A stretch of DNA of 32,000 nucleotides. Origin: Mycoplasma mobile 163K. Its GTDB lineage: Bacteria; Bacillota_I; Bacilli_A; Mycoplasmatales; Metamycoplasmataceae. A model generated the notes under the pieces. That model saw only the letters and a list, made by a program, of their open reading frames with translations. It ran no database searches and was not told the origin of the DNA. A program made the position numbers and the translations under genes. Where the stretch lies: assembly GCF_000008365.1 (NCBI RefSeq), contig NC_006908.1:480001-512000 (forward strand). Direction: 5' to 3'. Position 1 is the stretch's first letter, and every line of letters begins with the position of its first letter. This document shows, one piece after another, positions 1 to 23,547 of the stretch.

Positions 1-1070
1 CTTGCAGTGTCAAAAATATGTAGTTTATTTTTGTCAAAAGTAAAGGTATAATTTTTTTCAACTTGAATATTAGCAGAAGAGTGTAGTGATGCAACAAAAG
101 AATGCTTTCCATCAATTACAAAAAAAGCTTGTTTTTCTTTTCCTAAAATTTCTACAAACTCAGATTTTGCAATAATTTTATCTTCATTATTTTCCTTAGT
201 TAAATAAATATCTTCTGAACGAACACATAAAGTTATTTTTTTTGAACCTTTTATTTGAATTTTTTCATTATCACTATCATTTAATTTAATTTTTAAAATT
301 CCTGATTCACTAATAAAATAACCATTTTCATAACTACCTTCAAAAACATTAATTGTAGGATTTCCAATAAATTTAGCTACAAATAAATTTACTGGTTTAT
401 TGTATAAGTCTAATGGTTTTCCAATTTGCTGAATTTTAGAATTATTCATAACAACAATTTTTGTACCCATAGTCATAGCTTCTAGTTGATCATGCGTTAC
501 ATAAATAGTTGTAGATTCTAATAATCTATGAATTCTTACTAATTCAATTCTCATTGATTCACGTAATTTAGCATCAAGATTAGAAAGAGGCTCATCCATT
601 AAAAATAACTTAGGTTTTCTAGCTATTGCTCTACCTAATGCAACTCTTTGACGTTGACCTCCAGAGATATCTGAAGGTTTATTTGAAAGATACTCAGAAA
701 TTTGTAAAATTTTTGCAATGTCTTTAACTCTTCTATCAATTACATCTTTTCTTTCTTTTCTTACTTTAAGACCAAAAGCAATATTTTGATAAACAGTCAT
801 GTGTGGGTATAAAGCATAAGATTGAAATACCATAGCGATATCTCTATCTTTTGGACTTAGACCATTAACTCTTATTCCATCAAAAACTAAATCACCTTTT
901 GTGATTGAATTTAGGCCTGCTATCATTCTTAAAAGTGTACTTTTACCACATCCAGAAGGACCTAAAATGATTAAGAAGTCATTATCATCAATAGAGAGAT
1001 TTATGTTCTCCAAAGTATAATTTTCTCTTCCTTCATATTTTTTTGCAATATTTCTTAATTCTATTTTCAT
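1..1070 (-). CDS. Sugar ABC transporter ATP-binding protein (MalK/MsmK/UgpC family); 3' end runs off the window
   Basis: ATG at 1068-1070. Translation MKIELRNIAKKYEG...ILGPSGCGKSTLLRMIAG (Walker A), DISGGQRQRVALGRA (ABC signature), LFLMDEPLSNLD (Walker B), YVTHDQ (H-loop). The frame is open to base 1 with no stop of any kind, which is why it is missing from the ORF track. Confidence 0.93.
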   Translation of the reverse strand, partial: MKIELRNIAKKYEGRENYTLENINLSIDDNDFLIILGPSGCGKSTLLRMIAGLNSITKGDLVFDGIRVNGLSPKDRDIAMVFQSYALYPHMTVYQNIAFGLKVRKERKDVIDRRVKDIAKILQISEYLSNKPSDISGGQRQRVALGRAIARKPKLFLMDEPLSNLDAKLRESMRIELVRIHRLLESTTIYVTHDQLEAMTMGTKIVVMNNSKIQQIGKPLDLYNKPVNLFVAKFIGNPTINVFEGSYENGYFISESGILKIKLNDSDNEKIQIKGSKKITLCVRSEDIYLTKENNEDKIIAKSEFVEILGKEKQAFFVIDGKHSFVASLHSSANIQVEKNYTFTFDKNKLHIFDTA

Positions 1071-1080
1071 AATATCTCCT

Positions 1081-2793
1081 TTATTTTACAGCCCCTGATG
1101 TTAATCCACCTACAATAAATCTTTGTGCAAAAACAAATAATAAAGTAATAGGAATGGAAGTGATGATTGCTCCTGCAAGATATTCATATTGGAATATAGG
1201 TGCTCCTGGAGAAGTTGAAATTACAAGTGTTCTTAAACCAGCAGCTATTGTTAATTGCTTAACTGATGCTAATGATCCATCAGATAATAGAATTGGCAAG
1301 ATAATATCTCCAAATGGTCCTATGAAAGATCATAGTGCAACAATTGCAATAATTGGTTTTGCTAATGGAACTAGTATACTTCTAAAAACTTTTAAATTAG
1401 ATGAACCATCAATTTTTGCTGCTTCATCTAAATCTCTTGGTATTGAATCCATATAACCTTTTATAACAAATGTATTCCCTGTGATTGCTCCACCACTATA
1501 AATTATAATCAAGAATATTAATAGAGGTAATTGGGTTAATTGAAATAAAACTAAAAATGCAGTTAAAGATGCAACAGAAGGAACAAGTTGTAAAACTAAA
1601 ATAATAATTAATGAACTACTTTTACCCTTAAATCTAAATCTTGAAAAAGCATAAGCTAGAAATGTTGTAAAAAGCACTGTGATAATCATTGTTGAAATAG
1701 CAACTATGATTGAATTTCCTAATCATAAACCAAAATCTGTTTGTGTAAATAATTTCTCATAGTGTATAAATGAAAAACCTCCTCCTATATTTTCATTATC
1801 TCCTAGAGTATTAACCCCTGATCCATCAAAAGATAATATTAAAATTTGGAAAATAGGAAACAAAATAATAATAGCTCAAATGATAATTGTTATGTAATTA
1901 AAAATTAATGAAATTACTCCAGAAGGTTTTAAAGGAGCTAAATCAGAAAGAGAAATTTTATCATCAGTTTCTGAAATATGTGTTTGAAATTCTGCATAAT
2001 TATCAATGATTTTTTCTGAATAAAAGCCTACTTTTTCATACTTACTAGCAACTTCTTTTGAAATTAAATCAAAAGATAAATTTTTAGCAAGTGAATCATT
2101 TTTTTCACTTTTGATGTAACTACTAATTTCATTGAACAATACTTGATATTGCGCTAAATATAAATATGCTTGTTCTAAATCATTTTGATTTTTGCCTGTT
2201 ATTTTAAATACTTCATTTGAAATGATTTTTGATAAGTATTGAATTTTATTTCAAAATAAATTTCTAATCTTATCGATTTTTTTGTCAATTATTGTTTGAC
2301 TTATTTTTGCATATTTTTCTAAATCAAAAAATAATGATTTAAGCTCTTTTGCAAATTCATCTGAATATTTATTTGCTAAATAAATAGCAAAATTCTCCAA
2401 ATCTTTACTTACTAATTGCAATGATTTTCTCAATCCTCTAAATTGAATTGGGTATAGAGAAACAATTGAAGCTATTTTTATAGCACTTAAAAAATTAATA
2501 ATTCTAGGATTACTTTTAGTTTTTTTGTTTTTAAAAATTTCTTGTGTAAAAATAGTTAAAAAATTTCTCGTATCAGATTTATTTAAAAGTTTTTTTATTT
2601 CACTCATCATTTTAAAATTTAACTTTTCTTTTTGTTTAAAAATAGTTAATTCTGACTTTATGTTTTTTATTACATTATCACTTAAATCTAATCTAAAGGA
2701 TTTAACTTTTGAAGTTTTAAAAGGATTTAACTTTGAAAACATTTTATTTAATTCAAGATTTTGCATCTTGATTACATTTGCTTGTTTTAACAT
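1081..2793 (-). CDS. Sugar ABC transporter permease (MalG-like core) with a ~290-aa N-terminal soluble extension
   Basis: One frame is open from ATG 2791-2793 (AGGAG Shine-Dalgarno at 2798-2802) to TAA 1081-1083. ORF-track pieces 2251-2793, 1876-2139, 1330-1689 and 1081-1299 are all in this frame and are joined only by TGA codons; I translated the gaps and found them open. EAA loop: DSIPRDLDEAAKIDGSSNLKVFRSILVPLAKP. The first TM segment (GVISLIFNYITIIIWAIIILFPIF) appears only near 1930. Confidence 0.85.
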
Positions 2794-5462
2794 TATGCTC
2801 CTTTTTCTTTAAATGATTTACTACGTATAAATACAATAGATGAAATCACTACAATAAATACTGATACTAATAGAGTAAATGCTGATGCTAAAGCAATTCT
2901 ATTAGGGGCTGTTGTTGTTAATTTAAAAATTAATGAAATAATAATATCTGTTGCGCCAGGACTCCCAGCAAGTGATTGCCCAACTGCTGGTCCTCCACCA
3001 TTAAATAGGAAAATTACTCCAAAGTTATTAAAGTTAAAAACAATTTGACCTATTAATAATGGTAATATTTGAACAAGAATTATAGGTGCAGTAATTTTAA
3101 CAAATTGTTTTCATTTTGAAGCTCCATCAATAGATGCTGCTTCATAAAAATCATTAGAAATACTTTTCTTTACTCCTGAAATTAATAGGAATATATAAGA
3201 ATGTCCTAATCATATTTGAATTAAAATAACAGTTAATCTTGCCCAAAATTATGAACCTTGGAAATCTATTGTTGTTCCAAAAATTTGATTATATATACCT
3301 GAAGTTCCATTCCCAAAAGCAATTGAGAAAAATAGAATTGTGGCAAATGCTGGAATAGCTCATGGCAATACATAAATTGTAGATCAAATAATTTTACCTT
3401 TAATTCTTTTATTATCAACAATAATTGCTAATAGTGTTCCGATAAATATAACACCTAAAGAAACTGAAACAGTTCAAATTATAGTTCAACTTGTAACAAA
3501 GGCAATACTTGGACCAAAATCACCTGTAAATATTCTATCAAAATTACTAAAACCAACTCAGTTTAATGGATTGGTAATACCAGGTATTCCAATTCGAATT
3601 CCATAATCTGTAAAGGCAAGTAATATTGTTGCCATTAAAGGTAGAATAACAATTAGTGCTATTAAAACAAAAGCAGGTGTTAAGATAATTAAAGGAGAAC
3701 CATTATTCGCTAAATAATTTCTTAAGTGTCTACTATTTTTTGATCTTATTCCTTGAGATAACCATTTACCAGTGATATAAGCATCTCTCATAGTTGTTAA
3801 AATAATTACTAAACTTACAGATAAAGTCATAATAGCAATTATTCCTTCAATTAATCTGAATCGAGCATCTAAAAATATATCACCTAGTATTATTCCTCCT
3901 ACATTAGGAGAAAGAATCCCTAAACCAAAAACACCATCACCTTCTGAAGATCCTATTCAACCAAATGTTAAAGGTATTAGAAAAGCTCACATAAAAACAG
4001 AAATTGCTAAAATAATTGCACCTTTTACATATTGTCTATTTAAAAGTTGTCCTAGACCTGGAAGTAAAAATGAAAAGAGCATAGCTATTCATTTTTGATA
4101 TTTTGGCATTTTAGTAGGAATATTTTTCTGAGCATCATCAATTGTTGAGTTCATTATTTTGTATTCTTTTTCAATTTGTCTTTTTTTATCAATATATAAA
4201 AATTTCAATTTTTCACTTGCTATTAAATATTGATTAATTAAGCATGCTGAATTTCTTTCGAATTTCAATTGCTTTTTAGCAGATATAATAGAATTCTTTT
4301 TAGATGATTTAGAAAATTTACCCATTGAATAATCTTTTTTAATTCTCATAATTTCTTTTATGTAATTATTTTTTGCAATTATTTTTTGTTTTTGAATTTG
4401 CAAAACAATTTCAGGAGATTTTTTAGGAGTATTTGCTAATTCTTTTTTTGCATATTCAATTTGACTTTTATAATTTTCTAAAATTGACAAAACTTTAATT
4501 TCATGTTCTAGTTTCACTGAATATTCTAAAATCTTCAATTTTGAATTAAAACTATTATCAGACATTTTTTGATAAACACTTAATTTTGCTTTGATATATT
4601 CAATTTTTGCTTTTTGTTCTTTAAAAGGTTCATTTTTAAATTTTTTTAAAAAGCTTCTTCTTGAAGAAATTTTTCTCAATTTTTTTACTTTGTTTTGAGA
4701 AATTTTTTCTTCAATTATTGGTTCAAAAAAAGCATTTAAATAAATTTTTTTCTTTAATAAGTTTTTTTGTGAAATTCTAGCTTCAGAAATTAAACAGTGT
4801 TTTTCTTTTCACAATTCAGCATATGTTTTTCTTTTAAGTCAAAAATTCTTAATTCTATATTTTACTAGTTTAGATAGAAAAATATTCCTTTCCAATTTTA
4901 GTTTCTTTTTTTGATAATTCAATTTACTTTTTAGTGTTGTTTTATTTTTTTGAATTTGACTTTTTAAATCATTTTCAAGAGAATAAATTTTTTTATCAAT
5001 ATCTACTTTGCTTTCGTATTTATTCAATTCTTCTCTTTTTTGTTTGTAGATTTGTTCTAAATCATCAAGAGTTTGACTTAATTTCAATTTGTCATCTATT
5101 GAAAAATAGGCTAAACTTTTTTCTTGCTCTAATTTTTCATTTAAAACTTTAATTGAGTTTTTAATAAAAATAGATTTTTTTGAATCAAGCAAAATTTGCT
5201 TTTCTTTTAAGAAATTTCTTTTCAAAACATCAAATTCTATTTTACTGTTTTCTTTTAGTTTTATTAAAGCAAGTTTGGATTTAGTGTAACTAGATTTAAT
5301 AGAATAGTAATCTTTTTTAACTAATTCTTTATTAGTTTTTTTAAAGATATCTTTTTTAATTTTATTACCATTTAAAGAACTTTTAATATCAGCTTTAAGA
5401 GCAATTGCTTCATATTCATTTTTATCAGCATATTTTAAATTTAAATTTTTAATGAATTCCAT
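2793..5462 (-). pseudogene. MalF-like sugar ABC permease with a ~457-aa N-terminal extension, interrupted by one in-frame TAA (candidate pseudogene or sequencing error)
   Basis: ATG 5460-5462 with GGGAGGT Shine-Dalgarno (5471-5477). One frame runs to TAA 2793-2795, which overlaps the next ATG as TAATG. ORF-track pieces 4839-5462, 4089-4679 and 3558-3830 are in frame and joined by TGA. The core is conserved: YVLPWAIPAFATILFF..., IQIWLGHSYIFLLISGVKKSISNDFYEAASIDGASKWKQFVKITAPIIL. A genuine TAA at 3249-3251 (...TTIDFQGS*FWARLTVIL...) leaves a 737-codon N-terminal reading frame (3249-5462 with the stop). The EAA-loop portion lies downstream of it. Confidence 0.7.
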
Positions 5463-5463
5463 T

Positions 5464-5895
5464 TTATTTAACCTCCCATATTTTTTCTACTTCCATACTT
5501 CATTTATCACAATTAGGGCAAAATAGATTTTCATTCATTTTTTGTACTATTAAAGCCTGCGCATTTTCATATTCTCTTTTATATAATTTTCCATCAATTT
5601 TTAAAAATAACATGGGCAAATATTTGGTACTTTTTTCCACATAAAAAGTATTAATGTAAAAAGAAGCAGATTCTAAAATATTATTTTTTAATAATTCAAT
5701 TTCACCTTCAAATAAGTTATCGATTAATAATTTTTTTTGCTCATTACTTAATTTTTTAAAAAAATCTTTTTCTTTAACAAGAAGATTTAAAACATCTTCG
5801 ACTTTTTGAGTTTGATTAAGCTTACCGTGTATAAATTCAATTTTTGTTTCACATTTAAAACACTTAGCATCTATTCTAAATGCCATTACTACCAT
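5464..5895 (-). CDS. Hypothetical zinc-ribbon-like protein (two CxxC pairs at opposite ends)
   Basis: The ORF-track piece 5500-5895 continues through TGA at 5500 to TAA 5464-5466. CFKC lies near the N-terminus and CPNC near the C-terminus. Alternative ATG starts are at 5893-5895 and 5884-5886; the second avoids overlap with the upstream stop. I recognise no family. Confidence 0.6.
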
Positions 5896-6374
5896 CTTTC
5901 TTTATTTTTTAAATAAAAATTATTTTGGTGAAGTAAGACAAATAAATAAAATAAAGCAATAATAGCACCAATTGAAATTAATGTTGCAAAAATGCTATAT
6001 CATAATTCGTTTGTTAATAATCAAGAACTTAAAATATTTCCAATTCATAAGAAGGTTCAAAATATTACAAATACATAACCTACTTTTATCTTGCTATATC
6101 CAAAATAAGAATATATTCCGAAAAAAATTATAACTATTGAATTGACAAAAATTTTGACTATACTTTCTAGTTTGAAGCGATCAAATGCTTCAGTCATGCT
6201 TAAATTCTCTAATTTTTTTTGTATTATAAAACTATTTAATTGATCAGTAGATAGTAAAGAAACAAGACCTGAAATTACAATTAAAATCACTGAAATTAAA
6301 GAGATACTAAGAAAAGAATAAAACAAAATGTTATTTAAGTTAACTTTGCTTTGTGATTGTGTAAAAAAATTCAT
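5889..6374 (-). CDS. Hypothetical small integral membrane protein (~161 aa, about 4 hydrophobic segments)
   Basis: ATG 6372-6374. ORF-track piece 6057-6374 continues through TGA codons at 6057, 6045, 6021 and 6000 to TAG 5889-5891. Hydrophobic stretches include ILFYSFLSISLISVILIVISGLV, IVIIFFGIYSYF, VFVIFWTFLWIG and IFATLISIGAIIALFYLFVLL. No convincing Shine-Dalgarno sequence. Confidence 0.55.
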
Positions 6375-6392
6375 TTTATTATTGTTGTTCTA

Positions 6393-7877
6393 CTATTCAT
6401 TATTTGATCTATTAATATTTTGTTTAAAAACATTATAAAAAGCATCAGCTGTACTAAATGTTGCAGCAGAAAGTCCAAGTTCATCTCAAAATTGTCAATA
6501 TCTTCCAAATTTAGCAATAGTTGGTAAAGGAACATTATTTTTACTTTGATCTGATACTGATGATATAACACTTGTATAAAGTGCTGAAAGAGAATCAGCA
6601 AAACCTGTTGTAGATACTCAATCAGATAAATTAAGTTTGGAACCATTTGGATTAGTTGGATCAGTTAATTGAATAGAATTAATTATATCGGCTGATAAGT
6701 TAACATTAGCTCCTTCAGTTGCGGAAATTCTACCTGTATTTAGAAATCAATCAGTTGCTAAATCTTTAGAAGTAATGGCAGCTAAAATTCTTTTTGATAA
6801 GTCCAATTTTTTTTGTATTGCAGCAGTATTAGTTGCTCCTAATTTAGCTAAACCAGCTCTATTAAGACTATAACTTCATCCGCTTAGAAAATGAGATGCA
6901 TTTTTATTAGCAACTTTTGGCAAAATTGCAGTTTTTATATTTTGCAACATTGTTACCGCAGCTGCTTTATTAGTTTGATTAGCAAGTAAAATTCTTCCTA
7001 CTAAATCATTTATCATCCAAGGCCCTTCAATTGTAGAAGCTACATCACCTGAAGCTAATCCTTGTCTAATGATTGTATTTCTATCTGAACCTTGAGCTTT
7101 ATTTGCAAAATTTTGGTAACTAGTATTTGTTGATTTTCTTAAATTATTATTATATTCTCATAATTTAGTAACAGTTGATTTAATTTGTGTAGCAATATTA
7201 GTTTGATCTAAAAAAGGTGCTGTTACAGTCGTTCCTTCTTGTTTAATAAATGCTGATGAACCATCAACATACTCTGCAGGACTTAATGTTGCTCCTGCGT
7301 CTTTAAATGTAGATAGTAAAACAGATGATGCATGTCACATATCTGAATATTGTGTTAAAAAGTTTTTTTGATCATTTATATTAGTCGCAATTGCATCTTC
7401 ATAATTTAATCAACCTGTTTCATTTCCGATTAAATTTTTATTAAATATCTGAATTACTGATTCAACATTTAGTGTATATGAATAATTTTTTCCATTAACT
7501 ACACCAAAATTTGTTGTAAATGTAGGAATAGTTCCTAAATCTTGTACTATATTTGACTCAACTAATTGTGAATATCTATCTGCAGGAGCTACAAAAAGAT
7601 CTGCAGCATCTGTTGGTCTAAGAATTACTGTTTCTAATAAATATTGAAGTGAACCTTCATTGGGAATCGGAACTAAATCGACAAGCGCTCTATCTTCAGC
7701 ACTTAAACTATTAAGTCCTTTTAAAATAACTGGTCTTCATGGTTCTTCAAAAGAAAGTTTTACTCTTTCATTTGCTTGAGAGGTTCCGGTTGTTGTGCCA
7801 CAAGCTACTACAGCTAATGGAGTTATTAATGAAATCGCTCCTGCTGTTCCAAAAATAATTTTATTCCTCTTTTTCAT
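6393..7877 (-). CDS. Sugar/maltodextrin ABC transporter substrate-binding lipoprotein, paralog A (494 aa)
   Basis: ATG 7875-7877 with AAGGAG 11 nt upstream (7889-7894). Signal peptide plus lipobox: MKKRNKIIFGTAGAISLITPLAVVAC. I translated the whole gene and it is open except for TGA=Trp. Double stop TAG TAG at 6393-6395 and 6390-6392. MalE-like features: PADRYSQL, EGPWMINDL, FLSGWSYSLN. It is invisible in the ORF track because of frequent TGA codons. Confidence 0.88.
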
Positions 7878-7932
7878 TATGTTATTTTCTCCTTGATTAT
7901 TGATATATAAAATACTAATATATCATATATAT

Positions 7933-7938
7933 ATTATA
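7933..7938 (-). promoter_or_regulatory. Candidate -10 box (TATAAT) for lipoprotein gene A
   Basis: The minus strand reads GGGGTATAATATATATATG, about 55 nt upstream of ATG 7877 and upstream of the AAGGAG Shine-Dalgarno sequence. A weak TTCACT lies about 19 nt further upstream. Confidence 0.4.
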
Positions 7939-7995
7939 CCCCTACTGAATAATCATTAGTGAAAAACTTCAAAAAATAATTGCAAAATGAACTAT

Positions 7996-8029
7996 TTTTT
8001 TGCACAAAATAAAGTTTTTGTGCAAAAAA
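7996..8029. promoter_or_regulatory. Perfect 14-bp inverted repeat with 6-nt spacer upstream of lipoprotein gene A only
   Basis: ttttttgcacaaaa (7996-8009), taaagt, ttttgtgcaaaaaa (8016-8029). The equivalent position in unit B (about 10494-10525) reads tttttgcataaaataaagttttagcgcgaaa and cannot pair. Confidence 0.45.
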
Positions 8030-8053
8030 GTTATTAAATATTTAAAATTAGTC

Positions 8054-8076
8054 AAAAAAATGCAAATATTGCATTT
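8054..8076 (-). terminator. Duplicate of the GH65-stop hairpin/palindrome in unit A
   Basis: aaatgcaaatattgcattt at 8058-8076, preceded on the plus strand by an A-run at 8054-8057. Identical core to 10553-10571. Confidence 0.35.
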
Positions 8077-8912
8077 ATTTTATTATTTTAAAAGTTTGAT
8101 TCTCAAATTTATTATATTTTTCTGAAAGCATAACTTTTTTATTATTTACAAAAACTTCAATATCTTTGCCTTTAATTGTGATCTCAAATTTTTCTTCGAA
8201 TAGTTTTAATGCAATTAAAGTTTTTTTATTCGAACTGTGTATTCTAAACTTTTTCAATTCTCATTTAGTATTGGATTAAAATGAGCAATATCATTATAGT
8301 AATGAAATCCACCATATCCAAAAACAAATAATTGTCAAATAGCTGCTAGTGAACCTGCATGATAACCTGCATCTGAAGAGTGAAAATTAGTACCTAAATC
8401 AATTTGAAGAGCATATTCAAATAATTTATTAGCTATTTCAAGTTCTCTTAATTCAATACCTTTAAGTGCATAAGTAACTGCACTTAAAGAAGAATCATGT
8501 GTTGTCTTATCCAAATAGTATTTAAAGTTTTTTCTAATAACATCATCTGTAAAAAGTTCTTTGAAGATGTAAGTTGTTAAAACAACATCAGCTTGTTTTA
8601 CAAGTTGTCCACTTAATCTCTTAATACCTTCCATTGTATTAAATAACTTTTTACCAGCATCTCCTAAAAGTTGAAATTCACTTAAATCAAATTCAGGAAG
8701 TTTTAAAAATGTATCATTTCTGAATAATACTTTTATTATTTGGTTGTTGAATTTTAATTTTTGAAGCTACTTTTTTGATTAAAGATTTACTTACTTTATA
8801 AGGAATTCTTTTTAAAACATTTTCTAAAATATTTTTACCTTCAATTGTTTTTTCTAATTTATCAAAATATTTTAAAGCCAGTTCTAAATTTCTTTTTGCA
8901 ATTTGATTTGTA
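8075..8912 (-). pseudogene. 3' remnant of the GH65 glycoside phosphorylase gene (copy of 10570-11410), 5'-truncated and frameshifted
   Basis: Nearly identical by eye to the last ~840 bp of the intact gene at 10570-12969. It begins abruptly at the duplication junction 8912/8913. Relative to the intact copy it has three 1-nt deletions (about 8225, about 8719, about 8723). ORF-track fragments 8335-8634 and 8075-8257 lie in different frames. Confidence 0.85.
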
Positions 8913-8920
8913 TTGTTCTA

Positions 8921-10393
8921 CTATTCATTATTTGATTTTTTAATATTTTCTTTAAAGACATTGTAGAATTGATCAGCTGTACTAAATGTCGCAGCAGAAA
9001 GTCCATTTTTATCTCAAGAATCTCAATATCTTCCAAATTTAGAAATAGTTGGTAAAGGAACATTATTTTTACTTTGATTTATTACTGATGATGTGACACT
9101 TGTATAAAGTGCTGAAAGAGCTTCAGCAAAACCTGCTGTAGATGTTCATTGATCTAAATTAAGTTTAGACCCATCTATTTTAGTTGGATCAGTTAATTGA
9201 ATAGAATTAATTATATCGGATGATAAGTTAACATTAGCTCCTTCAGTTGCGGAAATTTTACCTGCATTTAAGAATCAATCATTTGCTAAATCTTTAGAAG
9301 TAATTGCAGCTAAAATTCTTTTTTCTAAATCCAATTTTTTTTGTATTGCAGTAGCATTATTTGCTCCTAATTTAGTTAAACCAGCTCTATTGACACTATA
9401 ACCTCATCCACTTAAAAAATGAAATGCATCTTTAGTAGCTACTTTTGGTAAAATTGCAGTTTTTATATTTTGCAACATTGTTACTGCAGCTGCTTTATTA
9501 TTTTCATTAGCAAGTAAAATTCTTGCTACTAAATCATTTACAATTCAAGGTCCATCAACTGTAGAAGATATAGTGCCTGAAGCTAAACCTTGTCTAATAA
9601 TTGTGTCTCTGCTTGAACCTTGGGCATTATTTGCAAAATTTTGGTAACTAGTATTTGTTGATTTTCTTAAATTATTATTATATTCTCATAATTTAGTAAC
9701 AGTTGATTTAATTTGTGTAGCAATATTAGTTTGATCTAAAAAAGGTGCTGTTACAGTCGTTCCTTCTTGTTTAATAAATGCTGATGAACCATCAACATAC
9801 TCTGCAGGACTTAATGTTGCTCCTGCGTCTTTAAATGTAGATAGTAAAACAGATGATGCATGTCACATATTTGAATATTGTGTTAAAAAGTTTTTTTGAT
9901 CAGTTATATTAGTTGCAATTGCATCTTCATAATTTAATCAACCTGTTTCATTTCCGATTAAATTTTTATTAAAAATCTGAATTACTGATTCTACATTTAG
10001 TGTATAGGAATAATTTTTTCCATTAACTACACTAAAATTTGTTGTAAATGTAGGAATAGCTCCTAAATCTTGTACTACATTTCCTTCAATCAATTGTGAA
10101 TATCTATCTGCAGGCACTACAAAAAGATCTGCTGCTTCTGTTGGTTTATTTGTAATAGTATCTAAATATTGAATTGAACTACCATCAGCAATTTCAACAA
10201 AATCTATAAATGATTGGTCTTCAGCACTTAAAGTCTTAAGTGCTTTTTCGATAATTGGTTTTCATGATTTTTCAAAAGAAAGTTTTACTCTTTCATTTTG
10301 TTCAGATGTTGTTCCACAAGCTACTACAGCTAAAGGTGCTAGCAATGAAACCATTCCTACTGTTCCAAAAATAATTTTGTTTCTTTTTTTCAT
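8921..10393 (-). CDS. Sugar/maltodextrin ABC transporter substrate-binding lipoprotein, paralog B (490 aa)
   Basis: ATG 10391-10393 with AAGGAG at 10405-10410. MKKRNKIIFGTVGMVSLLAPLAVVAC lipobox. I translated the whole gene and it is open except for TGA=Trp. Double TAG at 8921-8923 and 8918-8920. Colinear with paralog A. Confidence 0.88.
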
Positions 10394-10436
10394 TTTATAA
10401 TTTTCTCCTTATAAGATATTAATTCTCATATATATA

Positions 10437-10442
10437 ATTATA
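10437..10442 (-). promoter_or_regulatory. Candidate -10 box (TATAAT) for lipoprotein gene B
   Basis: The minus strand reads AAGAAGTATAATTATATATATG, at the position equivalent to the unit A hexamer. Preceded by a small palindrome, CTTACAATGTAAG. Confidence 0.4.
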
Positions 10443-10547
10443 CTTCTTACATTGTAAGAAACTTCAAAAATAATTGCAAAATGAACTATTTTTTTGCATA
10501 AAATAAAGTTTTAGCGCGAAATAGTTATTAAATATTTAAAATTAGTC

Positions 10548-10571
10548 AAAAAAAATGCAAATATTGCATTT
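10548..10571 (-). terminator. Weak hairpin plus T-run immediately after (and overlapping) the GH65 stop codon; alternatively a palindromic operator
   Basis: The minus strand reads TAAATGCAA-TAT-TTGCATTT followed by TTTTTGAC: an 8-bp AT-rich stem with only 2 GC pairs and a 3-nt loop. The core TGCAAATATTGCA resembles LacI-family half-sites (TGCAA). Confidence 0.35.
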
Positions 10572-12969
10572 ATTTTATTATTTTAAAAGTTTGATTTTCT
10601 AATTTATTATATTTTTCTGAAAGCATAACTTTTTTATTATTAACAAAAACTTCAATATCTTTACCTTTAATTGTGATCTCAAATTTTTCTTCGAATAGTT
10701 TTAATGTAATTAAAGTTTTATTTATTCGAACTGTGTATTCTAAACTTTTTCAATTCTCATTTAGTATTGGATTAAAATGAGCAATATCATTATAGTAATG
10801 AAATCCACCATATCCAAAAACAAATAATTGTCAAATAGCTGCTAGTGAACCTGCATGATAACCTGCATCTGAAGAGTGAAAATTAGTACCTAAATCAATT
10901 TGAAGAGCATATTCAAATAATTTATTAGCTATTTCAAGTTCTCTTAATTCAATACCTTGAAGTGCATAAGTAACTGCACTTAAAGAAGAATCATGTGTTG
11001 TCTTATCCAAATAGTATTTAAAGTTTTTTCTAATAACATCATCTGTAAAAAGTTCTTTGAAGATGTAAGTTGTTAAAACAACATCAGCTTGTTTTACAAG
11101 TTGTCCACTTAATCTCTTAATACCTTCCATTGTATTAAATAACTTTTTACCAGCATCTCCTAAAAGTTGAAATTCACTTAAATCAAATTCAGGAAGTTTT
11201 AAAAATGTATCATTTTCTGCAATAATACCTTTATTATTTGGTTGTTGAATTTTAATTTTTGAAGCTACTTTTTTGATTAAAGATTTACTTACTTTATAAG
11301 GGATTTTTTTTAAAACATTTTCTAGGATATTTTTACCTTCAATTGTTTTTTCTAATTTATCAAAATATTTTAAAGCCAGTTCTAAATTTCTTTTTGCAAT
11401 TTGATTTGTAAAGGCATTATTATTGATATTCCCCTTGTATTCATTAGGACCCATAACATCATTTATTTCATAATGATAATCTTTTGATTTTAATGATTGA
11501 ATTTTTTCTACTCTTGAAGTTCAAAAAACAGCAGTATCAAAAATTATTTCATATCCGTATTTGTTCATGAATTCTTCATCCTTAGTGACAACATAATATT
11601 GATCTACAGCAAAAGCAACATCACCAGGAACATGAATTTCATATTCTCTAGAAGCAATTGGTACTTGAACTCCGGTTTTAACATCAGGCTGCCCTCAATA
11701 TGGACACACTTCTCCATAATTTGGTCTTGCCATTTCCCAAGGATATTGTGCTCCTTTTAGTTTTTTCTCTTTTGCTTTATTTCTTGCGCCTTCAATTCCA
11801 TGATATCTATAAAGCAAAAGATCTCTTGCTACTTCAGGTTTTATAAATAAGTAAATTGGAAAAACAAAAAATTCTGTATCTCAAAATGTATGACCTTGAT
11901 ATCCTTCGCCGCTTAATCCTTTTGCTCCTACATTTAAAAATGAATTATCTTTAGGTACAAAATTATTTATGTGAAATAGAGCAAATTTAAGAGCTAAATT
12001 ATGAAATTCTCCTTGTTCTGTTTTAGCACTAATTTTTACATTGAAATCATTGTAAATTTTTTCAAATGTTTTAATATTTTCACTAAACAATTCATCATAA
12101 GAACTTTTGGATAAAATTTTATAAGTATTATTAGCTTGTGTAACAACTTCTTCGAATTTCATTTCTTTTTCAAAATCAGCAGTAGTGTTAACGGCCATTA
12201 ATTTTTCCATAATAAAAGGTTTTTTAGTAGAAAGAATTGTATTGATTTTAAAACCTACTTGTCTTCTTGCCATGGTAATAACCATGTCATCACTTACTCC
12301 ATTTTCAAAAAATGATTTTGCTTCTAAAGTTTTAGTATCAAAATCTTTATATGCTTTAACAACCATAGTATGAATAACATTTATTTTTGATCAATTAGTT
12401 TTTTCTATATATTGAATTGTTTTATTATCTAAAAGTTTTTTAATTCCTTCTTCTAAATGTTGATTACCTGAATTAGTTGTTTGACCATTAATAACGGGGC
12501 TAATCACAATTTTAGAATCAGTTCCTTCTAATTGTTTTAGTATAATTTTTTGAGCATAAATATTTTTTTTAATATTACTTACAAATGATTCTGTGCTTAG
12601 CTCAAATTTCTTATTTTCTCTATTAAAAGTTATTATCCTTTTTACTTTTCCATCACTTAAAGATAAATATTTTTGGTATTTATCATTTTCATTGATAACA
12701 AAAATATTTCCATCGATTTTAATTTGCATTTGCATTAAATTTGCAAGATTAGCCATTTCTGGAACAGAAGCATCATCACTTTTGTTAAAAATTCCATTCA
12801 CAAAGAATCCTTCTTTATTAAAAGAAGAAAATTCTAGATCAACTGCTCTAATTCCTAAATAACCATTTCCTTGAGCAAAAATTGATTCAGTTTTTGCAGT
12901 ATCTTGATTACTATAACCTTCCTGAATTATCTTCATATTTTTGTAGTCATATAAAATTTTATTTTTCAT
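10570..12969 (-). CDS. GH65 glycoside phosphorylase (maltose phosphorylase-like), ~799 aa
   Basis: ATG 12967-12969, TAA 10570-10572. ORF-track pieces 12391-12969, 11881-12366 and 10831-11454 share one frame and are joined by TGA; I translated the gaps. GH65 hallmark GLSGEGYQGHTFWDTEFFVFPIY...YRYHGIEGARNKAKEKKLKGAQYPWEMA. It sits directly downstream of pgmB (2-nt gap after the pgmB stop), the usual partner of maltose, trehalose and kojibiose phosphorylases. Confidence 0.9.
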
Positions 12970-12971
12970 TT

Positions 12972-13635
12972 TTATTTTCCTTTTAAATTCATTATTTCTT
13001 TAAAATTAATATCTTTTGTTTCTTGATAAATAAGATCAGCAATTTTTCAATTTTCTTTTACTCCATAAGTAAAGGCAACAACATACATTTTTGCCGAAAC
13101 TAATCCTTGAACACCAGCAATTGCATCTTCAAAACCTACACACTCATTTGGTTTTAGCTCAAAATGATTCATTACATCTAAATAAATATCAGGTGCAGGT
13201 TTTCCATTTTTAATAGTTGCCGGATTAGAAATATAATCAAATAAATCATATATTTCTAATGTCTTTAAAATTATAGGAGCATTATGTGAAGAAGAAGCAA
13301 TACCTAGTTTTAATTTATGTTTTTTTGCTTCTAATAATAACTCTTTTATTTTAGGTAAAATATCTTCTTTAGTTAATTTTGTTTTTAAATATTCTTTATA
13401 CAAGTTGTTTTTTATTTCACATAACTCATTAATTTTTACTTCTGTTAATTTTTTATCTAAATTATGCAATTTTAAAATTTGTAATAAAGTATCTTTTCTA
13501 CTTAATCCTTTTAGTGAATCATTTTCTTCTTTAGAATAATTAATACCTAAGTGTTTTTTTACAATTTTTTTTCAAGCTTCAAAATGCAAAATTGAAGTTT
13601 CTGTAATGACACCGTCTAAATCAAATATAAATGCC

Positions 13636-13643
<8 letters not shown>
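12972..13643 (-). CDS. pgmB: Beta-phosphoglucomutase (HAD superfamily)
   Basis: ATG 13641-13643. N-terminus MIKAFIFDLDGVITETS (DxDG motif). Continues in frame through ORF-track piece 13047-13469 and TGA 13047 to TAA 12972-12974. GKPAPDIY and FEDAIAGVQG motifs. Confidence 0.88.
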
Positions 13644-16434
<2,791 letters not shown>

Positions 16435-16435
<1 letters not shown>

Positions 16436-17580
16436 TATTTTTCCTTCCCATCATATAAAATGATTCCATCTTCTTCATTCAATGATTGATTATTTAATGA
16501 ATTTAAAACCATCTTTTCTTTTACTACTGTATTTTCCATAATAATTGTTTTTTTAATAAAAGAATTTTCACCAATTATTGCATTTGACATTATTACAGAA
16601 TCTTCAATAATTGTATTTTTACCAATTTTAACATTTTCAAAAATTACTGAATTTGAAACATGTCCTTCTATTTTTGCTCCGTTTGCTACTAAAGAATTTA
16701 CCACATTACCACCACTTGTTATATATTGAGGCGAATGAGATGAACTTTTTGTAAAAATAGTTCAATTTTTTTCTCTTAAGTCTAAATTTTTATGATTTTT
16801 TATTAGATCTAAATTAGCCTCATAAAAAGTAGAAATTGTTCCAACATCTTTTCAATAACCATTAAATTCATAGGCAAATATTTTACTATATTTTTTTAAG
16901 ATATAAGGTAATATGTTATGTCCGAAATCTTGAAAATTATTACCTTTACTTTTTAACTCTTCAAAAGTATCTTTTAATAGTTGGTAATTAAAAATATAAA
17001 CACCCATAGAAGCTTTTGTAGATTTAGGAATCTTAGGTTTTTCTTCAAATTCTTCAACCATATTATTTTCGTTTGTATTTAAAATTCCGAATCTTGAAGC
17101 TTCTTCAAAAGATACATTAATGGTTGCTATTGTTACATTAGCATTTTTTTCTTTATGAAAATCTAACATTTTAGAATAATCCATTTTATAAATATGATCT
17201 CCACTCAAAATTAAAGCATAAGTAGGATCATATTCATTCATAAAATCAATATTTTCAAAAATCGCATGAGCTGTTCCTGCATATCAATAACCTTCGGATT
17301 CTTTTACATATGGACTTAGCAAAACAACTCCACCATTTAGTCTATTTAAGTCAAAAGGAATTCCCGAACCTATGTGTTTTAATAATGAAAGAGGTCTATA
17401 TTGAGTTAAAACACCTACTGTGTCAATTCCGCTATTAATGCAATTTGACAATGTAAAATCAATTATTCTATATTTTGCTCCAAAAGGAACTGCTGGTTTA
17501 GCGATTTTTTTTGTAAGATTTTTTAATCTTGTACCTTGACCACCCGCAAGAATCATTGCAATCATTTCCTTTTTTACCAT
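16435..17580 (-). CDS. glgC: Glucose-1-phosphate adenylyltransferase
   Basis: ATG 17578-17580 (GAAGGT Shine-Dalgarno). [47 protein letters not shown]. Pieces 17284-17580, 16852-17241 and 16435-16704 are in one frame and I checked the gaps. The TAA at 16435-16437 overlaps the glgD ATG (TAATG). Confidence 0.93.
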
Positions 17581-19748
17581 TACTTTACCTTCTTTTTGTT
17601 TTTGATGAATATGTAAAATCCATGTGCTTCTATAAGGATTTTATTATTTTTAATTTCATTATTTTCTAAATTTTGACTATTTAAAATACAAGTTCAAAAA
17701 TTACTATCTAAATCTATTTCAATGTCATTCTGGTTGATATTTATATTAACTTGAATACTATAATCAGAATCTTCTAAAAGATAATAAATTAAGGAATTAT
17801 TGCCAACAAAAATTTTTACATGTTCTTTAACAAGTTGAATTGTTTCAAGTCTAAAAAGATTATATTTTTTTCTAATTTCAATAATTTTTTTAATAAGCTC
17901 AACATTTCAATAATTCTCTTTTAATTTATTTCATTCGAATCTATTTATTTCAATTGGGAAATTATAAGAATTCTCTACATTATATTTTGTTCTAAAAATT
18001 TCTTGTCCTGCATGAATAAATGGTATACCTTGAGAAATAAGTGTAATAGCTGTTGTTAAAGCATGAATTTTTTTAATTGTAAAATCAGAAAAACTACTTA
18101 ATTTTATTTTAAAAAAATCAAATAAAGTATAGTTATCATGACATTCTACATAATTAACACTTTGACTTAAAAAATTAAACTTCTTTGCATATTCATATAA
18201 TCCTAAAGATCCAGTAATAGAATTTAAAGCTTTATGTCCTTGTTGTCAATCACCAGCACTAAAAGATTTTGAATAAACATTCCATTGATTTCCTTTAAAA
18301 ACATCTCTAAAATAATCATTGAAAAAACCTATGTTTGCTAAAAATCTAGAATTTTCCATGTTAGCTAAAATCTTCTTAGTTGATTCAGAATTCATAACTC
18401 ATCCTTCACCATAAATAATGAAATTACTATTATTATTTTTTGTATTTTCGTCCACTTCTAAAATCGTTTCAATATCTAAAAGGCCCATTAAATCAAATCT
18501 TAATCCATCAATTTTGAATGTTTCTTGTCAATGTTTAACAACATCTACAATATATTTGCGAACCATTTTCTTTTCACTTGCAACATCATTTCCTGTACCT
18601 GACATATTTGATAAACTTAAATCTGTGTTATATCTATAAAAATAATGAGGTGCAAGAATATGTCAAGAAAATGAAAAAGCATCATAAACGTGATTAAAAA
18701 CAACATCCATAACTACATCAATATCATTTTTATGAAAATTATTTATCATTTTTTTTGTTTCTATTAGTCTTAAATATGGATCATAAGAATTTGTAGAATA
18801 AGAACCTTCTGGAACCATTCATTGCAAAGGATCATATCCTCAATTATATTGATTTTCAACATCTCTTTCTTCATCTACGGTTGCAAAATCATAAAAAGGC
18901 ATAATTTGAACTGTATTGATTCCTAGATTTTTTATATGATCAATTCCTATTGAAAAACCATCTTTATTTTTAATACCTTCTTCAGTTAAACCTAAATACT
19001 TACCAGGATATTTAAATTCATTAGAATCTGTAAAATCTCTAATACTTATTTCGTAAATTATTCTATCTGTTTTATTTGCTAATTTACTTTTATAAACAAA
19101 ATTATATTTTTCTAGAAGATCTAAATTAATTACATAAGAGTATTTTCCATTTGCAGTTGATGCTTTAGCATAAGGATCTATAGTTTCACTTGTTATAAAA
19201 TTATTTTCAACTTCATATTGATATAAATAAGATTCAAGATCTCTTGAAATTGTTATTTGTCAAATTCCTTTTTCTTGTCTTTCCATATCAAAATATTCTG
19301 CTATATCATTAAAACTTTTCTTTATTTTTAATCTTAATTTATATGAAGTCGGAGATCAAACTTTAAATGTGGTACTTTGTTTAGAGTATGTTGGACCTAA
19401 ATCATTTCCAGAATAAAAAAAGATTTCATCAAAAATTTCTTTTTTTATTATTTGACCAAATTTTAAAGCTATTTCATAATTATATTTACCAATAATTTTG
19501 TAATAGTTTTTAAAATCTATAAAATTGCTTTTTATAAAAAGATGTAAATACGAAAAAGTATTTTTATCATCAATATATGCAATTTGAAGATTATTTAACT
19601 TTTCATTTGTATTTATATTCTCAAGAGAAAATGAATCATTATGAGTGTAAAAATTTTTTGGTGCTTTAATAACTATTTCGTTAAAATCATCTAAAAATGC
19701 TTCTAAATCATGTGGATTGTATAAATCAAGTAATGCTGTTTTATTCAT
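17580..19748 (-). CDS. pulA: Type I pullulanase / glycogen debranching enzyme (GH13), 722 aa
   Basis: ATG 19746-19748. I translated the whole gene: ...[16 protein letters not shown]..., [45 protein letters not shown]. The TAA at 17580-17582 overlaps the glgC ATG. Confidence 0.88.
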
Positions 19749-21621: not shown

Positions 21622-21624
21622 GAT

Positions 21625-23055: not shown

Positions 23056-23547
23056 TTTTAACCTTCAATATAGAATATAAATAGAATTTTTCATAGTAAT
23101 TTAATTCACAAATTGAATATAAACTAATTGAAACTTTTTATTTTTTTTACTTCATTTAAATTATATATATTTTATATATATATTTTTTAAAAATATGTGT
23201 ATAAACTTGATATTTTTTTGTTGAACTTATTCAAAACATTAAAAATTTTTGAAAAAATGATAAAAATATGTTCAAAAATTAAAAATTAATATAAAAACAT
23301 GACTAAATCTTGTTGTATAAAATGAAATTTAAAAAGGGAAGTTAAAATAGTAGACATAATATTTAAAGAAACTAAAATTTTTCAGATAATTTTCAACATA
23401 TCATTTAAGTTTAAAAGTAAGAATAGAATTTTTGTTTAATATTTTAAGTAATAATCAAATATGCAAATGCATTATTTAAATATAAATTTTCTAAATGAAA
23501 ATGTTTAAAAAGTTAGAATGTTAAAATATAAATAGATTTTGCTTTTT

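What the first reader, a model, noticed from the sequence alone, without database searches (positions are those of the whole stretch)
6385..11410. Head-to-tail ~2.5 kb tandem duplication gives two binding-lipoprotein genes separated by a GH65 gene remnant
Unit A (6385-8912) and unit B (8913-11410) are colinear. Each carries a complete solute-binding lipoprotein gene, its 5' intergenic region (Shine-Dalgarno, -10 box, palindrome) and the last ~840 bp of the GH65 phosphorylase gene. Both units start with ttgttctactattcattatttgat and end with gcaatttgatttgta. The 8912/8913 junction fuses an internal GH65 codon directly to the stop region of lipoprotein gene B. No transposase, integrase or terminal inverted repeats flank the units, so unequal crossing-over or replication slippage is the likeliest origin. 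The result is one ABC transporter operon with two binding proteins, each keeping its own promoter copy. This is an amplification caught in the act in a reduced genome.
Basis: seen in the sequence. Interest (0 to 1): 0.72.

Follow-up and report, generated by a model that had tools for sequence, protein, structure and literature searches.

The report
Diverged tandem duplication of sugar-binding lipoprotein
A real 2.5 kb head-to-tail duplication in the published Mycoplasma mobile 163K genome gives two maltodextrin-binding lipoprotein genes and a dead fragment of a sugar phosphorylase gene. The duplication is old and patchily re-homogenised rather than "caught in the act", so it is an ordinary case of gene-family evolution.

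Summary
Window 6385-8912 and 8913-11410 are colinear direct repeats, 91% identical over 2,545 aligned columns. Each holds an intact lipoprotein gene of about 490 codons, with SD and -10 box, plus the last 838 nt of the GH65 gene. The window is Mycoplasma mobile 163K (genetic code 4). The genes are already annotated: MMOB3920 and MMOB3940 as "maltose-binding protein", and MMOB3930 as "hypothetical protein", which is really an ORF inside the frameshifted GH65 remnant.

An assembly artefact is excluded. The copies differ at 191 substitutions and 40 gap columns. An independently assembled contig from another sequencing run spans the 8912/8913 junction at 100% identity.

"Caught in the act" is not supported. 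Divergence is strongly mosaic: dS is about 0.36 in the N-terminal part of the binding-protein genes, 0.05 in the middle and 0.17 in the C-terminal part, and the GH65 part differs by 1.7%. There are identical runs of 238-256 nt against about 62 expected. This points to an older duplication followed by gene conversion. Three other mycoplasmas carry one copy.

The downstream MalF-type permease gene has an in-frame TAA that removes its conserved core, so the transporter these proteins should serve may be inactive in this strain. Interest is low.

The parts
6385..8912 (.). Duplication unit A (2,528 nt)
   Evidence: BLASTN self-match and MAFFT alignment; boundary strings
8913..11410 (.). Duplication unit B (2,498 nt)
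8898..8926 (.). Novel junction (8912|8913): the last base of GH65 codon 520 is joined to the sequence 8 nt downstream of the SBP-B stop. There is only weak AT-rich similarity (8 of 12 bases) between 6373-6384 and 8901-8912.
   Evidence: confirmed at 100% by independent Logan contig L006 = window 8077-9073
6393..7877 (-). SBP-A: lipoprotein, 494 aa, lipobox AVVAC. GenBank AAT27878 'maltose-binding protein' (MMOB3920 by position in the accession series). It lies directly upstream of orf161, orf143, malF, malG and malK.
   Evidence: profile match to solved sugar-binding proteins 9kha (E 5.5e-8) and 2zyk (E 2.6e-7)
8921..10393 (-). SBP-B: lipoprotein, 490 aa, 82% identical to SBP-A. GenBank AAT27880 'maltose-binding protein' (MMOB3940 by position). 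It lies directly downstream of the intact GH65 gene.
8075..8912 (-). GH65 remnant: codons 521-799 plus stop. It is 98.3% identical to 10570-11410 but has frameshifting deletions at 8224/8225 (1 nt) and 8721/8722 (2 nt). It contains the ORF annotated as 'hypothetical protein MMOB3930' (8218-8634).
10570..12969 (-). Intact GH65 glycoside phosphorylase/hydrolase gene (799 aa). Its last 838 nt form the right part of unit B.
   Evidence: Pfam Glyco_hydro_65N/m/C; NCBIfam; AAT27881
7099..7342 (.). 244-nt run identical to 9627-9870, inside a 95-100% identical block (7140-7539) in the middle of the SBP genes. Inferred gene-conversion tract.
8225..8719 (.). 495 nt with a single difference from 10721-11215 (identical runs of 238 and 256 nt). 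Inferred gene-conversion tract between the GH65 remnant and the intact gene.
7540..8038 (.). Most diverged block (73-78% per 100 columns, with indels): the SBP N-terminal region and its 5' intergenic region. This block sets the minimum age of the duplication.
7889..7939 (-). Unit A expression signals: AAGGAG 7889-7894 and GTATAAT 7933-7939
   Evidence: consensus matches only; no expression data
10405..10443 (-). Unit B expression signals: AAGGAG 10405-10410 and GTATAAT 10437-10443
8058..8076 (-). Short hairpin AAATGCAatatTTGCATTT plus T-run straight after the (pseudo)GH65 stop. An identical copy lies at 10553-10571. It looks like a weak terminator.
8000..8025 (.). Perfect palindrome TTGCACAAAA-N6-TTTTGTGCAA in unit A only. 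The unit B counterpart (10494-10519) has 4 mismatches.
2793..5462 (-). MalF-type permease gene of the same operon, interrupted by an in-frame TAA at 3249-3251. The 151 codons after the stop encode the BPD_transp_1 core.
   Evidence: same sequence in independent contig L007; GenBank product AAT27875 is the 737-aa truncated form

Best explanation
This is a fixed, fairly old tandem segmental duplication in the alpha-glucan (maltodextrin) utilisation locus of Mycoplasma mobile 163K.

Origin (inferred). An illegitimate or unequal exchange joined a site inside GH65 (after codon 520) to a site 8 nt past the stop of the binding-protein gene. No mobile element and no long repeat was involved. The exchange copied one 2.5 kb unit: the GH65 3' end, the intergenic promoter region and the binding-lipoprotein gene.

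Later history (shown, except the conversion mechanism, which is inferred). The internal GH65 copy had no start and decayed into a frameshifted pseudogene. Both binding-protein genes stayed open. The two units diverged by up to about 20-27%, and gene conversion between the tandem copies then repeatedly erased the divergence in patches. These patches are the middle of the binding-protein gene and most of the GH65 segment.

Function (inferred). Each binding-protein gene can be transcribed from its own -10 box. The pair provides extra dosage and/or a somewhat altered ligand range for one MalFGK-type importer, as in other ABC systems with paralogous binding proteins. In the sequenced strain that importer is probably disabled by a nonsense codon in malF.
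For: - Identity of the organism and genes: exact matches to M. mobile 163K proteins AAT27875-AAT27881.
- Duplication and boundaries.
- Reality of the junction: an independent contig spans it at 100%. A second run yields a collapsed contig that ends exactly at the repeat edge and carries variants of both copies.
- Single copy is the ancestral state: M. agassizii, M. amphoriforme and M. testudineum each have one binding-protein gene, followed by orf161, malF, malG and malK.
- The nearest relative found (Logan contig L002, 56-59% aa identity) has GH65 directly upstream of the binding-protein gene, as in M. mobile. Both M. mobile copies are closer to each other than to it in every region.
- Age: dS is 0.175 overall and 0.36 in the N-terminal third, against 0.9-1.1 to L002.
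- Mosaic divergence. Substitutions per site: 0.114 (SBP C-terminal half), 0.020 (middle), 0.196 (N-terminal part), 0.118 plus 25 gap columns (intergenic) and 0.017 (GH65 part). The longest identical runs are 256, 244 and 238 nt. The mean longest run in 5,000 shuffles was 62 and the largest was 132, so none reached the observed value.
- Selection contrast: all indels inside the two binding-protein genes are in frame (3 codons and 1 codon), while the two indels in the GH65 remnant shift the frame.
- Binding-protein assignment: lipobox; profile matches to solved oligosaccharide-binding proteins; the top structural neighbours are cyclo/maltodextrin-binding proteins, though from a weak model; the gene is linked to malF, malG and malK.
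Against: - No second M. mobile lineage was available, so the timing, the polarity of conversion and any copy-number polymorphism could not be observed directly.
- The mosaic could also come from recombination with diverged alleles imported from another strain.
- The 98.3% identity of a supposedly neutral pseudogene fragment requires conversion tracts that together cover about 840 nt. This is plausible but is inferred, not seen.
- Promoters and the terminator-like hairpin are consensus matches only. The promoter scan found no more sites than in shuffled sequence.
- Ligand binding and the expression of each copy are untested.
- The malF stop codon makes any present-day transport role uncertain.
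Confidence: 0.75

Rival explanations
1. Recent duplication caught in the act. On this view the GH65 part, at about 98% identity, gives the true age, and the binding-protein genes diverged quickly under positive selection.
For: The GH65 segment differs by only 14 substitutions and 2 indel events in 843 nt. dN/dS in the diverged parts of the binding-protein genes is fairly high, 0.5-0.65.
Against: Synonymous divergence is itself 10-20 times higher in the diverged blocks (pS 0.27-0.34) than the total divergence of the pseudogene segment (0.017). The non-coding intergenic region is also highly diverged, with 25 gap columns. dN/dS stays below 1. Positive selection cannot explain synonymous and intergenic change.
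Confidence: 0.04
2. Recombination with foreign alleles. Either a fairly recent duplication was followed by replacement of parts of one copy with DNA from a diverged M. mobile-like strain, or the duplication itself formed during unequal integration of donor DNA. The diverged blocks would then be imported rather than aged in place.
For: The mosaic of sharply bounded blocks with three divergence levels, about 2%, 11% and 20%, is also what allelic import produces. From general knowledge, large-scale chromosomal transfer that produces mosaic genomes is known in the hominis-group species M. agalactiae.
Against: It needs at least two imports of different divergence into the same 1.5 kb. Both copies are each other's closest relatives in every block. 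No second lineage or third paralogue was found in 5.8 billion proteins. Gene conversion between adjacent direct repeats is the simpler process.
Confidence: 0.15
3. Assembly artefact: one locus written twice.
For: None beyond the a priori possibility.
Against: The copies differ at 231 alignment columns. The junction and the left edge are reproduced at 100% in assemblies from two other sequencing runs. A collapsed contig from one run contains variants of both copies.
Confidence: 0.01
4. Decaying locus. With malF truncated, the importer is dead. The two binding-protein genes are then either on their way to becoming pseudogenes or are kept for a role that does not involve transport, such as a surface glycan-binding lipoprotein.
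For: There is an in-frame TAA at malF codon 738 and the permease core lies after it. The same base is present in an independent run. dN/dS of 0.5-0.65 suggests relaxed constraint.
Against: Both genes of about 490 codons are intact and their indels are in frame. malG, GH65, pgmB and GH13 are intact, as is malK up to the window edge. The stop could be a recent laboratory mutation, since both runs probably derive from strain 163K. This explanation bears on present function, not on the origin of the duplication, so it is compatible with the best explanation.
Confidence: 0.3

Closest known systems
hisJ/argT of Salmonella and E. coli: tandem paralogous periplasmic binding proteins that share the HisQMP2 translocator (textbook case, cited from general knowledge)
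   Same: The two binding-protein genes arose by tandem duplication, sit next to one set of membrane and ATPase genes, each has its own promoter, and they are about 70-80% identical.
   Different: Here the proteins are lipoproteins of a wall-less bacterium with a predicted sugar ligand. The duplication scar (a GH65 fragment) is still visible. Gene conversion has kept blocks identical. Sharing of the translocator and any difference in ligand range are untested.
Multiple binding-protein paralogues serving one ABC importer (for example Borrelia OppA1-3, Streptococcus AmiA/AliA/AliB, Thermotoga MalE1/MalE2; general knowledge)
   Same: There is more than one binding protein per translocator, giving higher dosage or a broader substrate range.
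   Different: No biochemical evidence exists here, and the cognate MalF gene carries a nonsense codon in this strain.
Cyclo/maltodextrin-binding protein TvuCMBP (PDB 2zyk/2zyo) and other family-1 extracellular solute-binding proteins
   Same: The profile match is E 2.6e-7 over about 115 residues and this protein is the top Foldseek neighbour. The genes are linked to malF, malG, malK, GH13, GH65 and pgmB.
   Different: Identity is about 15%. No Pfam SBP_bac_1 hit was found at E <= 0.01. The protein is about 100 residues longer, and the structural model is poor (pLDDT 52).
Concerted evolution (gene conversion) of tandem bacterial paralogues, for example tufA/tufB and rRNA operons (general knowledge)
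   Same: Long identical tracts are embedded in diverged sequence between two copies in one genome.
   Different: The tracts here include a non-functional pseudogene fragment that is kept similar to its functional parent.
Single-copy orthologous loci in M. agassizii, M. amphoriforme and M. testudineum (L001/L003, L004, L005)
   Same: The cassette is the same: binding protein, orf161, an extra ORF where present, malF, malG, malK. In two of the species GH13, pgmB and GH65 are also present.
   Different: They have one binding-protein gene and no GH65 fragment. GH13, pgmB and GH65 lie downstream of malK rather than upstream of the binding-protein gene. Identity is 31-37%.

Membership tests
Tandem (head-to-tail) segmental duplication | Two colinear direct copies that abut without a spacer | tested here: met
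   6385-8912 and 8913-11410; a single colinear BLASTN match of 2,545 columns at 91%
Tandem (head-to-tail) segmental duplication | A novel junction that joins the right end of the unit to its left end and is present in real DNA | tested here: met
   The junction string is unique, at 8898-8926. It is reproduced at 100% in independent contig L006.
Tandem (head-to-tail) segmental duplication | Single-copy state in relatives | tested here: met
   There is one binding-protein gene in each of three mycoplasma species. Only one was found in the closest relative's sample, but that contig is too short to be conclusive.
Recent or ongoing amplification ('caught in the act') | Copies nearly identical throughout, with neutral divergence near zero | tested here: not met
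   The copies are 9% diverged overall. dS is 0.175, rising to 0.36-0.45 at the N-terminus. The intergenic region is 12% diverged with 25 gap columns.
Gene conversion / concerted evolution between paralogues | Identical tracts significantly longer than expected from the overall divergence, and heterogeneous synonymous divergence | tested here: met
   The runs are 256, 244 and 238 nt, against a mean longest run of 62 in shuffles (0 of 5,000 reached the observed value). dS is 0.046 in the middle against 0.36 and 0.17 in the flanks.
Gene conversion / concerted evolution between paralogues | Donor and recipient polarity and independent events shown in a phylogeny of several lineages | not testable with these tools
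   No other M. mobile-clade genome with this locus was found.
Mobile-element-mediated duplication | Transposase or integrase gene, or terminal inverted or long direct repeats, at the unit ends | tested here: not met
   The flanking ORFs (orf161, orf143) have no significant Pfam or NCBIfam match. No inverted repeats sit at the edges. The edges share only 8 of 12 AT-rich bases.
Family-1 extracellular solute-binding protein (MalE-like), lipoprotein form | Signal peptide with a lipobox cysteine | tested here: met
   MKKRNKIIFGT...PLAVVAC in both copies
Family-1 extracellular solute-binding protein (MalE-like), lipoprotein form | Significant sequence similarity to the family | tested here: inconclusive
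   No Pfam hit at E <= 0.01. The NCBIfam MalE match is far below its cut-off (17 bits against 291). However, a profile of 4 homologues matches solved sugar-binding proteins 9kha (E 5.5e-8) and 2zyk (E 2.6e-7) over 115-200 residues.
Family-1 extracellular solute-binding protein (MalE-like), lipoprotein form | Two-lobe periplasmic-binding-protein fold | tested here: inconclusive
   The AlphaFold model has mean pLDDT 52.5 and pTM 0.51. The top 13 Foldseek hits are all sugar-binding proteins, but with TM only 0.23-0.44.
Family-1 extracellular solute-binding protein (MalE-like), lipoprotein form | Genetic linkage to MalF/MalG-type permeases and a MalK-type ATPase | tested here: met
   BPD_transp_1 is found in malG and in the malF tail. 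The same cassette occurs in three other species, where the ATPase carries ABC_tran and OB_MalK.
Family-1 extracellular solute-binding protein (MalE-like), lipoprotein form | Binds maltose or maltodextrin | not testable with these tools
   Needs purified protein and ligand-binding assays.
Functional MalEFGK-type ABC importer | Intact genes for both permeases | tested here: not met
   malF has an in-frame TAA at 3249-3251. Homologues read through this position, the permease core lies after the stop, and there is no restart codon for 133 codons.
GH65 glycoside phosphorylase/hydrolase | N-terminal, central catalytic and C-terminal GH65 domains in one open frame | tested here: met
   For 10570-12969: Glyco_hydro_65N, Glyco_hydro_65m (E 6e-120) and Glyco_hydro_65C. 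The 8075-8912 copy has only codons 521-799 and two frameshifts, so it is a pseudogene fragment.

The most novel reading that the evidence does not exclude
The two binding lipoproteins may have split their function, with different alpha-glucan ligands or different regulation (only unit A keeps the perfect upstream palindrome), while gene conversion keeps their translocator-docking core identical. A further possibility is that they are retained for a surface glycan-binding role that no longer depends on the truncated MalF importer.
Probability: 0.1. Interest if true: 0.4.

Novelty: new member of a known kind. Interest (0 to 1): 0.2.

Why it matters
The practical value is modest. First, it corrects the annotation: MMOB3930 is a GH65 pseudogene fragment, not a hypothetical protein. 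Second, it flags a nonsense codon in malF. Third, it gives a clean small example of tandem duplication followed by patchy gene conversion in a 777 kb reduced genome, showing that such genomes still gain and maintain paralogues. It opens no long-standing question and would not surprise a specialist in mycoplasma genomics or ABC transporters.

Tried and rejected
- ORF calling with table 11 fragmented every gene. Code 4 fixed this.
- The first genome-contig scan, with the SBP-A protein, found nothing, and M. mobile itself appears to be absent from that collection. The second scan, with a profile, found only three distant single-copy loci.
- The metagenome-contig scans, one with the profile and one with the exact junction string, found nothing.
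- Two large protein searches returned only 4 and 5 family members, so no second M. mobile lineage and no third paralogue is available.
- The M. mobile genome paper could not be opened. Literature searches for the locus tags or for a description of this duplication found nothing relevant.
- Structure prediction with a 5-sequence alignment gave a poor model (pLDDT 52), so the fold search is only suggestive.
- A relative-rate test of SBP-A against SBP-B, with L002 as outgroup, was not significant (35 vs 22 derived residues, p = 0.11).
- The Rfam and tRNA scans of the window were empty.
- The promoter and terminator consensus scan was no better than shuffled sequence.
- Logan contig L008 at first looked like a natural A/B recombinant of the GH65 segment. 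It ends exactly at the repeat edges and alternates A and B variants four times in 943 nt. I read it as an assembler's collapsed consensus, not as evidence of recombination.

Full report
**What the window is.** GC content is about 25%. Table-11 ORFs are fragmented, whereas translation with code 4 (TGA = Trp) gives long genes. The two lipoprotein products match, at 100% and 81% identity to the SBP-A query, proteins named "maltose-binding protein [Mycoplasma mobile]" from a 777,079-nt contig. Exact look-ups identify seven products as M. mobile 163K proteins AAT27875-AAT27881. All genes discussed here are on the minus strand:

| Gene | Window coordinates |
|---|---|
| Glycogen and pullulanase genes | 15260-23094 |
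| GH13 alpha-glucosidase | 13636-15285 |
| Beta-phosphoglucomutase-like HAD | 12972-13679 |
| GH65 (799 aa) | 10570-12969 |
| SBP-B | 8921-10393 |
| GH65 remnant | 8075-8912 |
| SBP-A | 6393-7877 |
| orf161 | 5889-6374 |
| orf143 | 5464-5895 |
| MalF-type permease | 2793-5462 |
| MalG-type permease | 1081-2793 |
| MalK-type ATPase (cut by the window edge) | 3-1070 |

These assignments rest.

**Check of the observation.** BLASTN of 5500-13500 against the window gives one off-diagonal match, 6373-8912 vs 8901-11410, at 91.08% identity over 2,545 columns. The junction string is unique, at 8898-8926. The three edges read as follows:

- Left outer edge: ...TTCATTTTATTATTG|TTGTTCTACT...
- Junction: ...GCAATTTGATTTGTA|TTGTTCTACT...
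- Right outer edge: ...GCAATTTGATTTGTA|AAGGCATTAT...

The junction follows the last base of GH65 codon 520 and lies 8 nt past the TAG stop of SBP-B. The only similarity between the recombining sites is 8 of 12 AT-rich bases, which is weak. No inverted repeats or mobile-element genes flank the units. There is one small correction. The large palindrome (TTGCACAAAA-N6-TTTTGTGCAA, 8000-8025) is perfect only in unit A, and its unit B counterpart has 4 mismatches and does not fold. The SD, the GTATAAT box and a short hairpin with a T-run after the GH65 stop are present in both units.

**Not an artefact.** The units differ at 191 substitutions and 40 gap columns, which a spurious assembly duplication would not produce. 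Public assemblies of other sequencing runs also reproduce the structure:

- L006 (SRR4046664, 997 nt) equals window 8077-9073 at 100% and crosses the junction.
- L007 (SRR29904084, 7,159 nt) equals window 1-6545 and crosses the left outer edge.
- Both contigs stop at the equivalent repeat position (6545 corresponds to 9073), as expected where a de Bruijn graph branches at a two-copy repeat.
- L008 (SRR29904084, 943 nt) covers exactly the GH65 repeat (7972-8912 or 10466-11410) and alternates between unit A and unit B variants. I read it as a collapsed consensus. It does show that both variants are present in that run.

**What the parts are.** The intact GH65 gene has all three GH65 domains. The unit A copy holds only codons 521-799. 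It has a 1-nt deletion at 8224/8225 and a 2-nt deletion at 8721/8722, so it reads in three frames. GenBank's "hypothetical protein MMOB3930" (139 aa) is simply the longest ORF inside this remnant.

The two lipoproteins have a lipobox (AVVAC) and give no Pfam hit. A profile of four homologues matches solved sugar-binding proteins 9kha_A (E 5.5e-8) and the cyclo/maltodextrin-binding protein 2zyk_A (E 2.6e-7). An AlphaFold model was poor (pLDDT 52.5). Its best Foldseek neighbours are all oligosaccharide-binding proteins, led by 2zyo, but with TM scores of only 0.23-0.44. Taken with the conserved linkage to malF, malG and malK in four species, the assignment as a solute-binding protein is well supported. 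The ligand is inferred only.

**Age and history.** Identity along the units is strongly mosaic:

| Block | Substitutions per site |
|---|---|
| SBP C-terminal half | 0.114 |
| SBP middle (7140-7539) | 0.020 |
| SBP N-terminal part | 0.196 |
| Intergenic region | 0.118, plus 25 gap columns |
| GH65 part | 0.017 |

Nei-Gojobori estimates for the binding-protein genes follow the same pattern:

| Columns | dS | dN/dS |
|---|---|---|
| 1-115 | 0.36 | 0.52 |
| 115-250 | 0.046 | 0.28 |
| 250-498 | 0.17 | 0.65 |

The longest identical runs are 256, 244 and 238 nt. In 5,000 shuffles of the differences the mean longest run was 62 and the largest was 132. The GH65 remnant is a pseudogene and should drift fastest, yet it is the least diverged part. 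Positive selection on the binding proteins cannot explain high synonymous and intergenic divergence. The simplest account is an older duplication whose copies diverged and were then partly re-homogenised by gene conversion between the adjacent direct repeats.

For scale, dS to the nearest relative found (L002, a 1,988-nt Logan contig, 56-59% aa identity) is 0.9-1.1. In every block the two M. mobile copies are closer to each other than to that relative. The duplication therefore postdates that split but is far from fresh. Import of diverged alleles from another strain remains a possible alternative source of the mosaic, and no second M. mobile lineage was available to test it.

**Ancestral state.** M. 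agassizii, M. amphoriforme and M. testudineum each carry one binding-protein gene, followed by orf161, malF, malG and malK, with no GH65 fragment. L002 shows the end of GH65 directly upstream of its single assembled binding-protein gene, so the GH65-to-SBP adjacency predates the duplication. The contig ends 37 nt after the stop codon, which is too short to establish copy number.

**Selection.** All indels within the two binding-protein genes are in frame (3 codons and 1 codon), and both ORFs of about 490 codons are intact. The indels in the GH65 remnant shift the frame. This contrast indicates that both binding-protein genes have been under purifying, if relaxed, selection. SBP-A has slightly more derived residues than SBP-B (35 vs 22), but the difference is not significant (p = 0.11).

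**Function and caveat.** By analogy with other ABC systems that have paralogous binding proteins, the pair would raise binding-protein dosage and/or widen the ligand range for one MalFGK-type translocator. SBP-B is probably transcribed on its own up to the hairpin at 8058-8076. SBP-A would be transcribed together with the downstream genes. These statements are inferences from sequence signals only.

The malF gene carries an in-frame TAA at 3249-3251, where homologues read through (E in M. amphoriforme). The 151 codons after the stop encode the BPD_transp_1 core (E 2e-13), and there is no restart codon for 133 codons. The same base is present in the independent contig L007, and GenBank lists the truncated 737-aa product. 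In the sequenced strain the importer is therefore probably inactive. Whether this is a laboratory mutation or the natural state is unknown.

**Comparison with known systems, and verdict.** This is a standard tandem segmental duplication with a visible scar, followed by concerted evolution. Its closest classical analogue is hisJ/argT sharing HisQMP (general knowledge). It lies in a genome published in 2004, with both genes already annotated. I found no paper that describes the duplication itself, and I could not open the genome paper. Interest is low (0.2), and I rate the novelty as a new member of a known kind.

Noticed in passing
window 3249-3251 (malF-type permease gene 2793-5462, minus strand): An in-frame TAA at codon 738 truncates the permease before its BPD_transp_1 core. 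Homologues read through this position. The same sequence is seen in an independent Logan contig, and GenBank annotates the 737-aa truncated product. The maltodextrin importer is probably inactive in strain 163K.
   Followed up: yes
window 8218-8634 (minus strand): GenBank's 'hypothetical protein MMOB3930' (139 aa; RefSeq also has a 180-aa version) is an ORF inside the frameshifted GH65 remnant. It is probably not a real gene.
   Followed up: yes
L008 (Logan SRR29904084, 943 nt) = window 7972-8912 / 10466-11410: This contig alternates four times between unit A and unit B variants and ends exactly at the repeat edges. It looks like a collapsed, bubble-popped consensus of the two copies rather than a natural recombinant.
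   Followed up: partly
window 8000-8025 vs 10494-10519: A perfect 10+10 palindrome (a 13-bp stem with its T/A flanks, z = -2.9) lies about 60 nt upstream of the unit A -10 box. It is degenerate in unit B (4 mismatches) and absent from the relative's intergenic region (L002). It could be an operator or an RNA hairpin; its role is unknown.
   Followed up: partly
window 5889-6374 (orf161) and 5464-5895 (orf143): Two small genes lie between the binding-protein gene and malF. orf161 is a multi-pass membrane protein conserved at this position in M. agassizii, M. amphoriforme and M. testudineum. orf143 has CxxC...CxxC motifs and is labelled 'expressed protein' in GenBank. Neither has a Pfam or NCBIfam family, and they may be unrecognised accessory parts of this transporter.
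   Followed up: partly
window 3252-5462 and 1081-2793: Both permeases carry long lysine-rich N-terminal extensions that look like coiled coil (about 450 aa in MalF and about 290 aa in MalG) ahead of the membrane domain.
   Followed up: no
window 15260-23094 (minus strand): There is a complete glycogen-type gene cluster in a 777 kb mycoplasma genome: starch/glycogen synthase (GlgA-like), branching enzyme, pullulanase-type debranching enzyme, and two ADP-glucose pyrophosphorylase-like genes. It lies directly upstream of the maltodextrin genes.
   Followed up: partly
window 13636-13679: As called here, the GH13 gene (13636-15285) and the phosphoglucomutase-like gene (12972-13679) overlap by 44 nt. 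The true start of the latter may be an internal ATG.
   Followed up: no
L001/L003, L004, L005 vs window: Gene order differs between species. In M. agassizii and M. testudineum, GH13, pgmB and GH65 follow malK. In M. mobile and its closest relative (L002) they precede the binding-protein gene. The cassette is shared by mycoplasmas that I recall belong to different phylogenetic groups, which hints at horizontal transfer.
   Followed up: no
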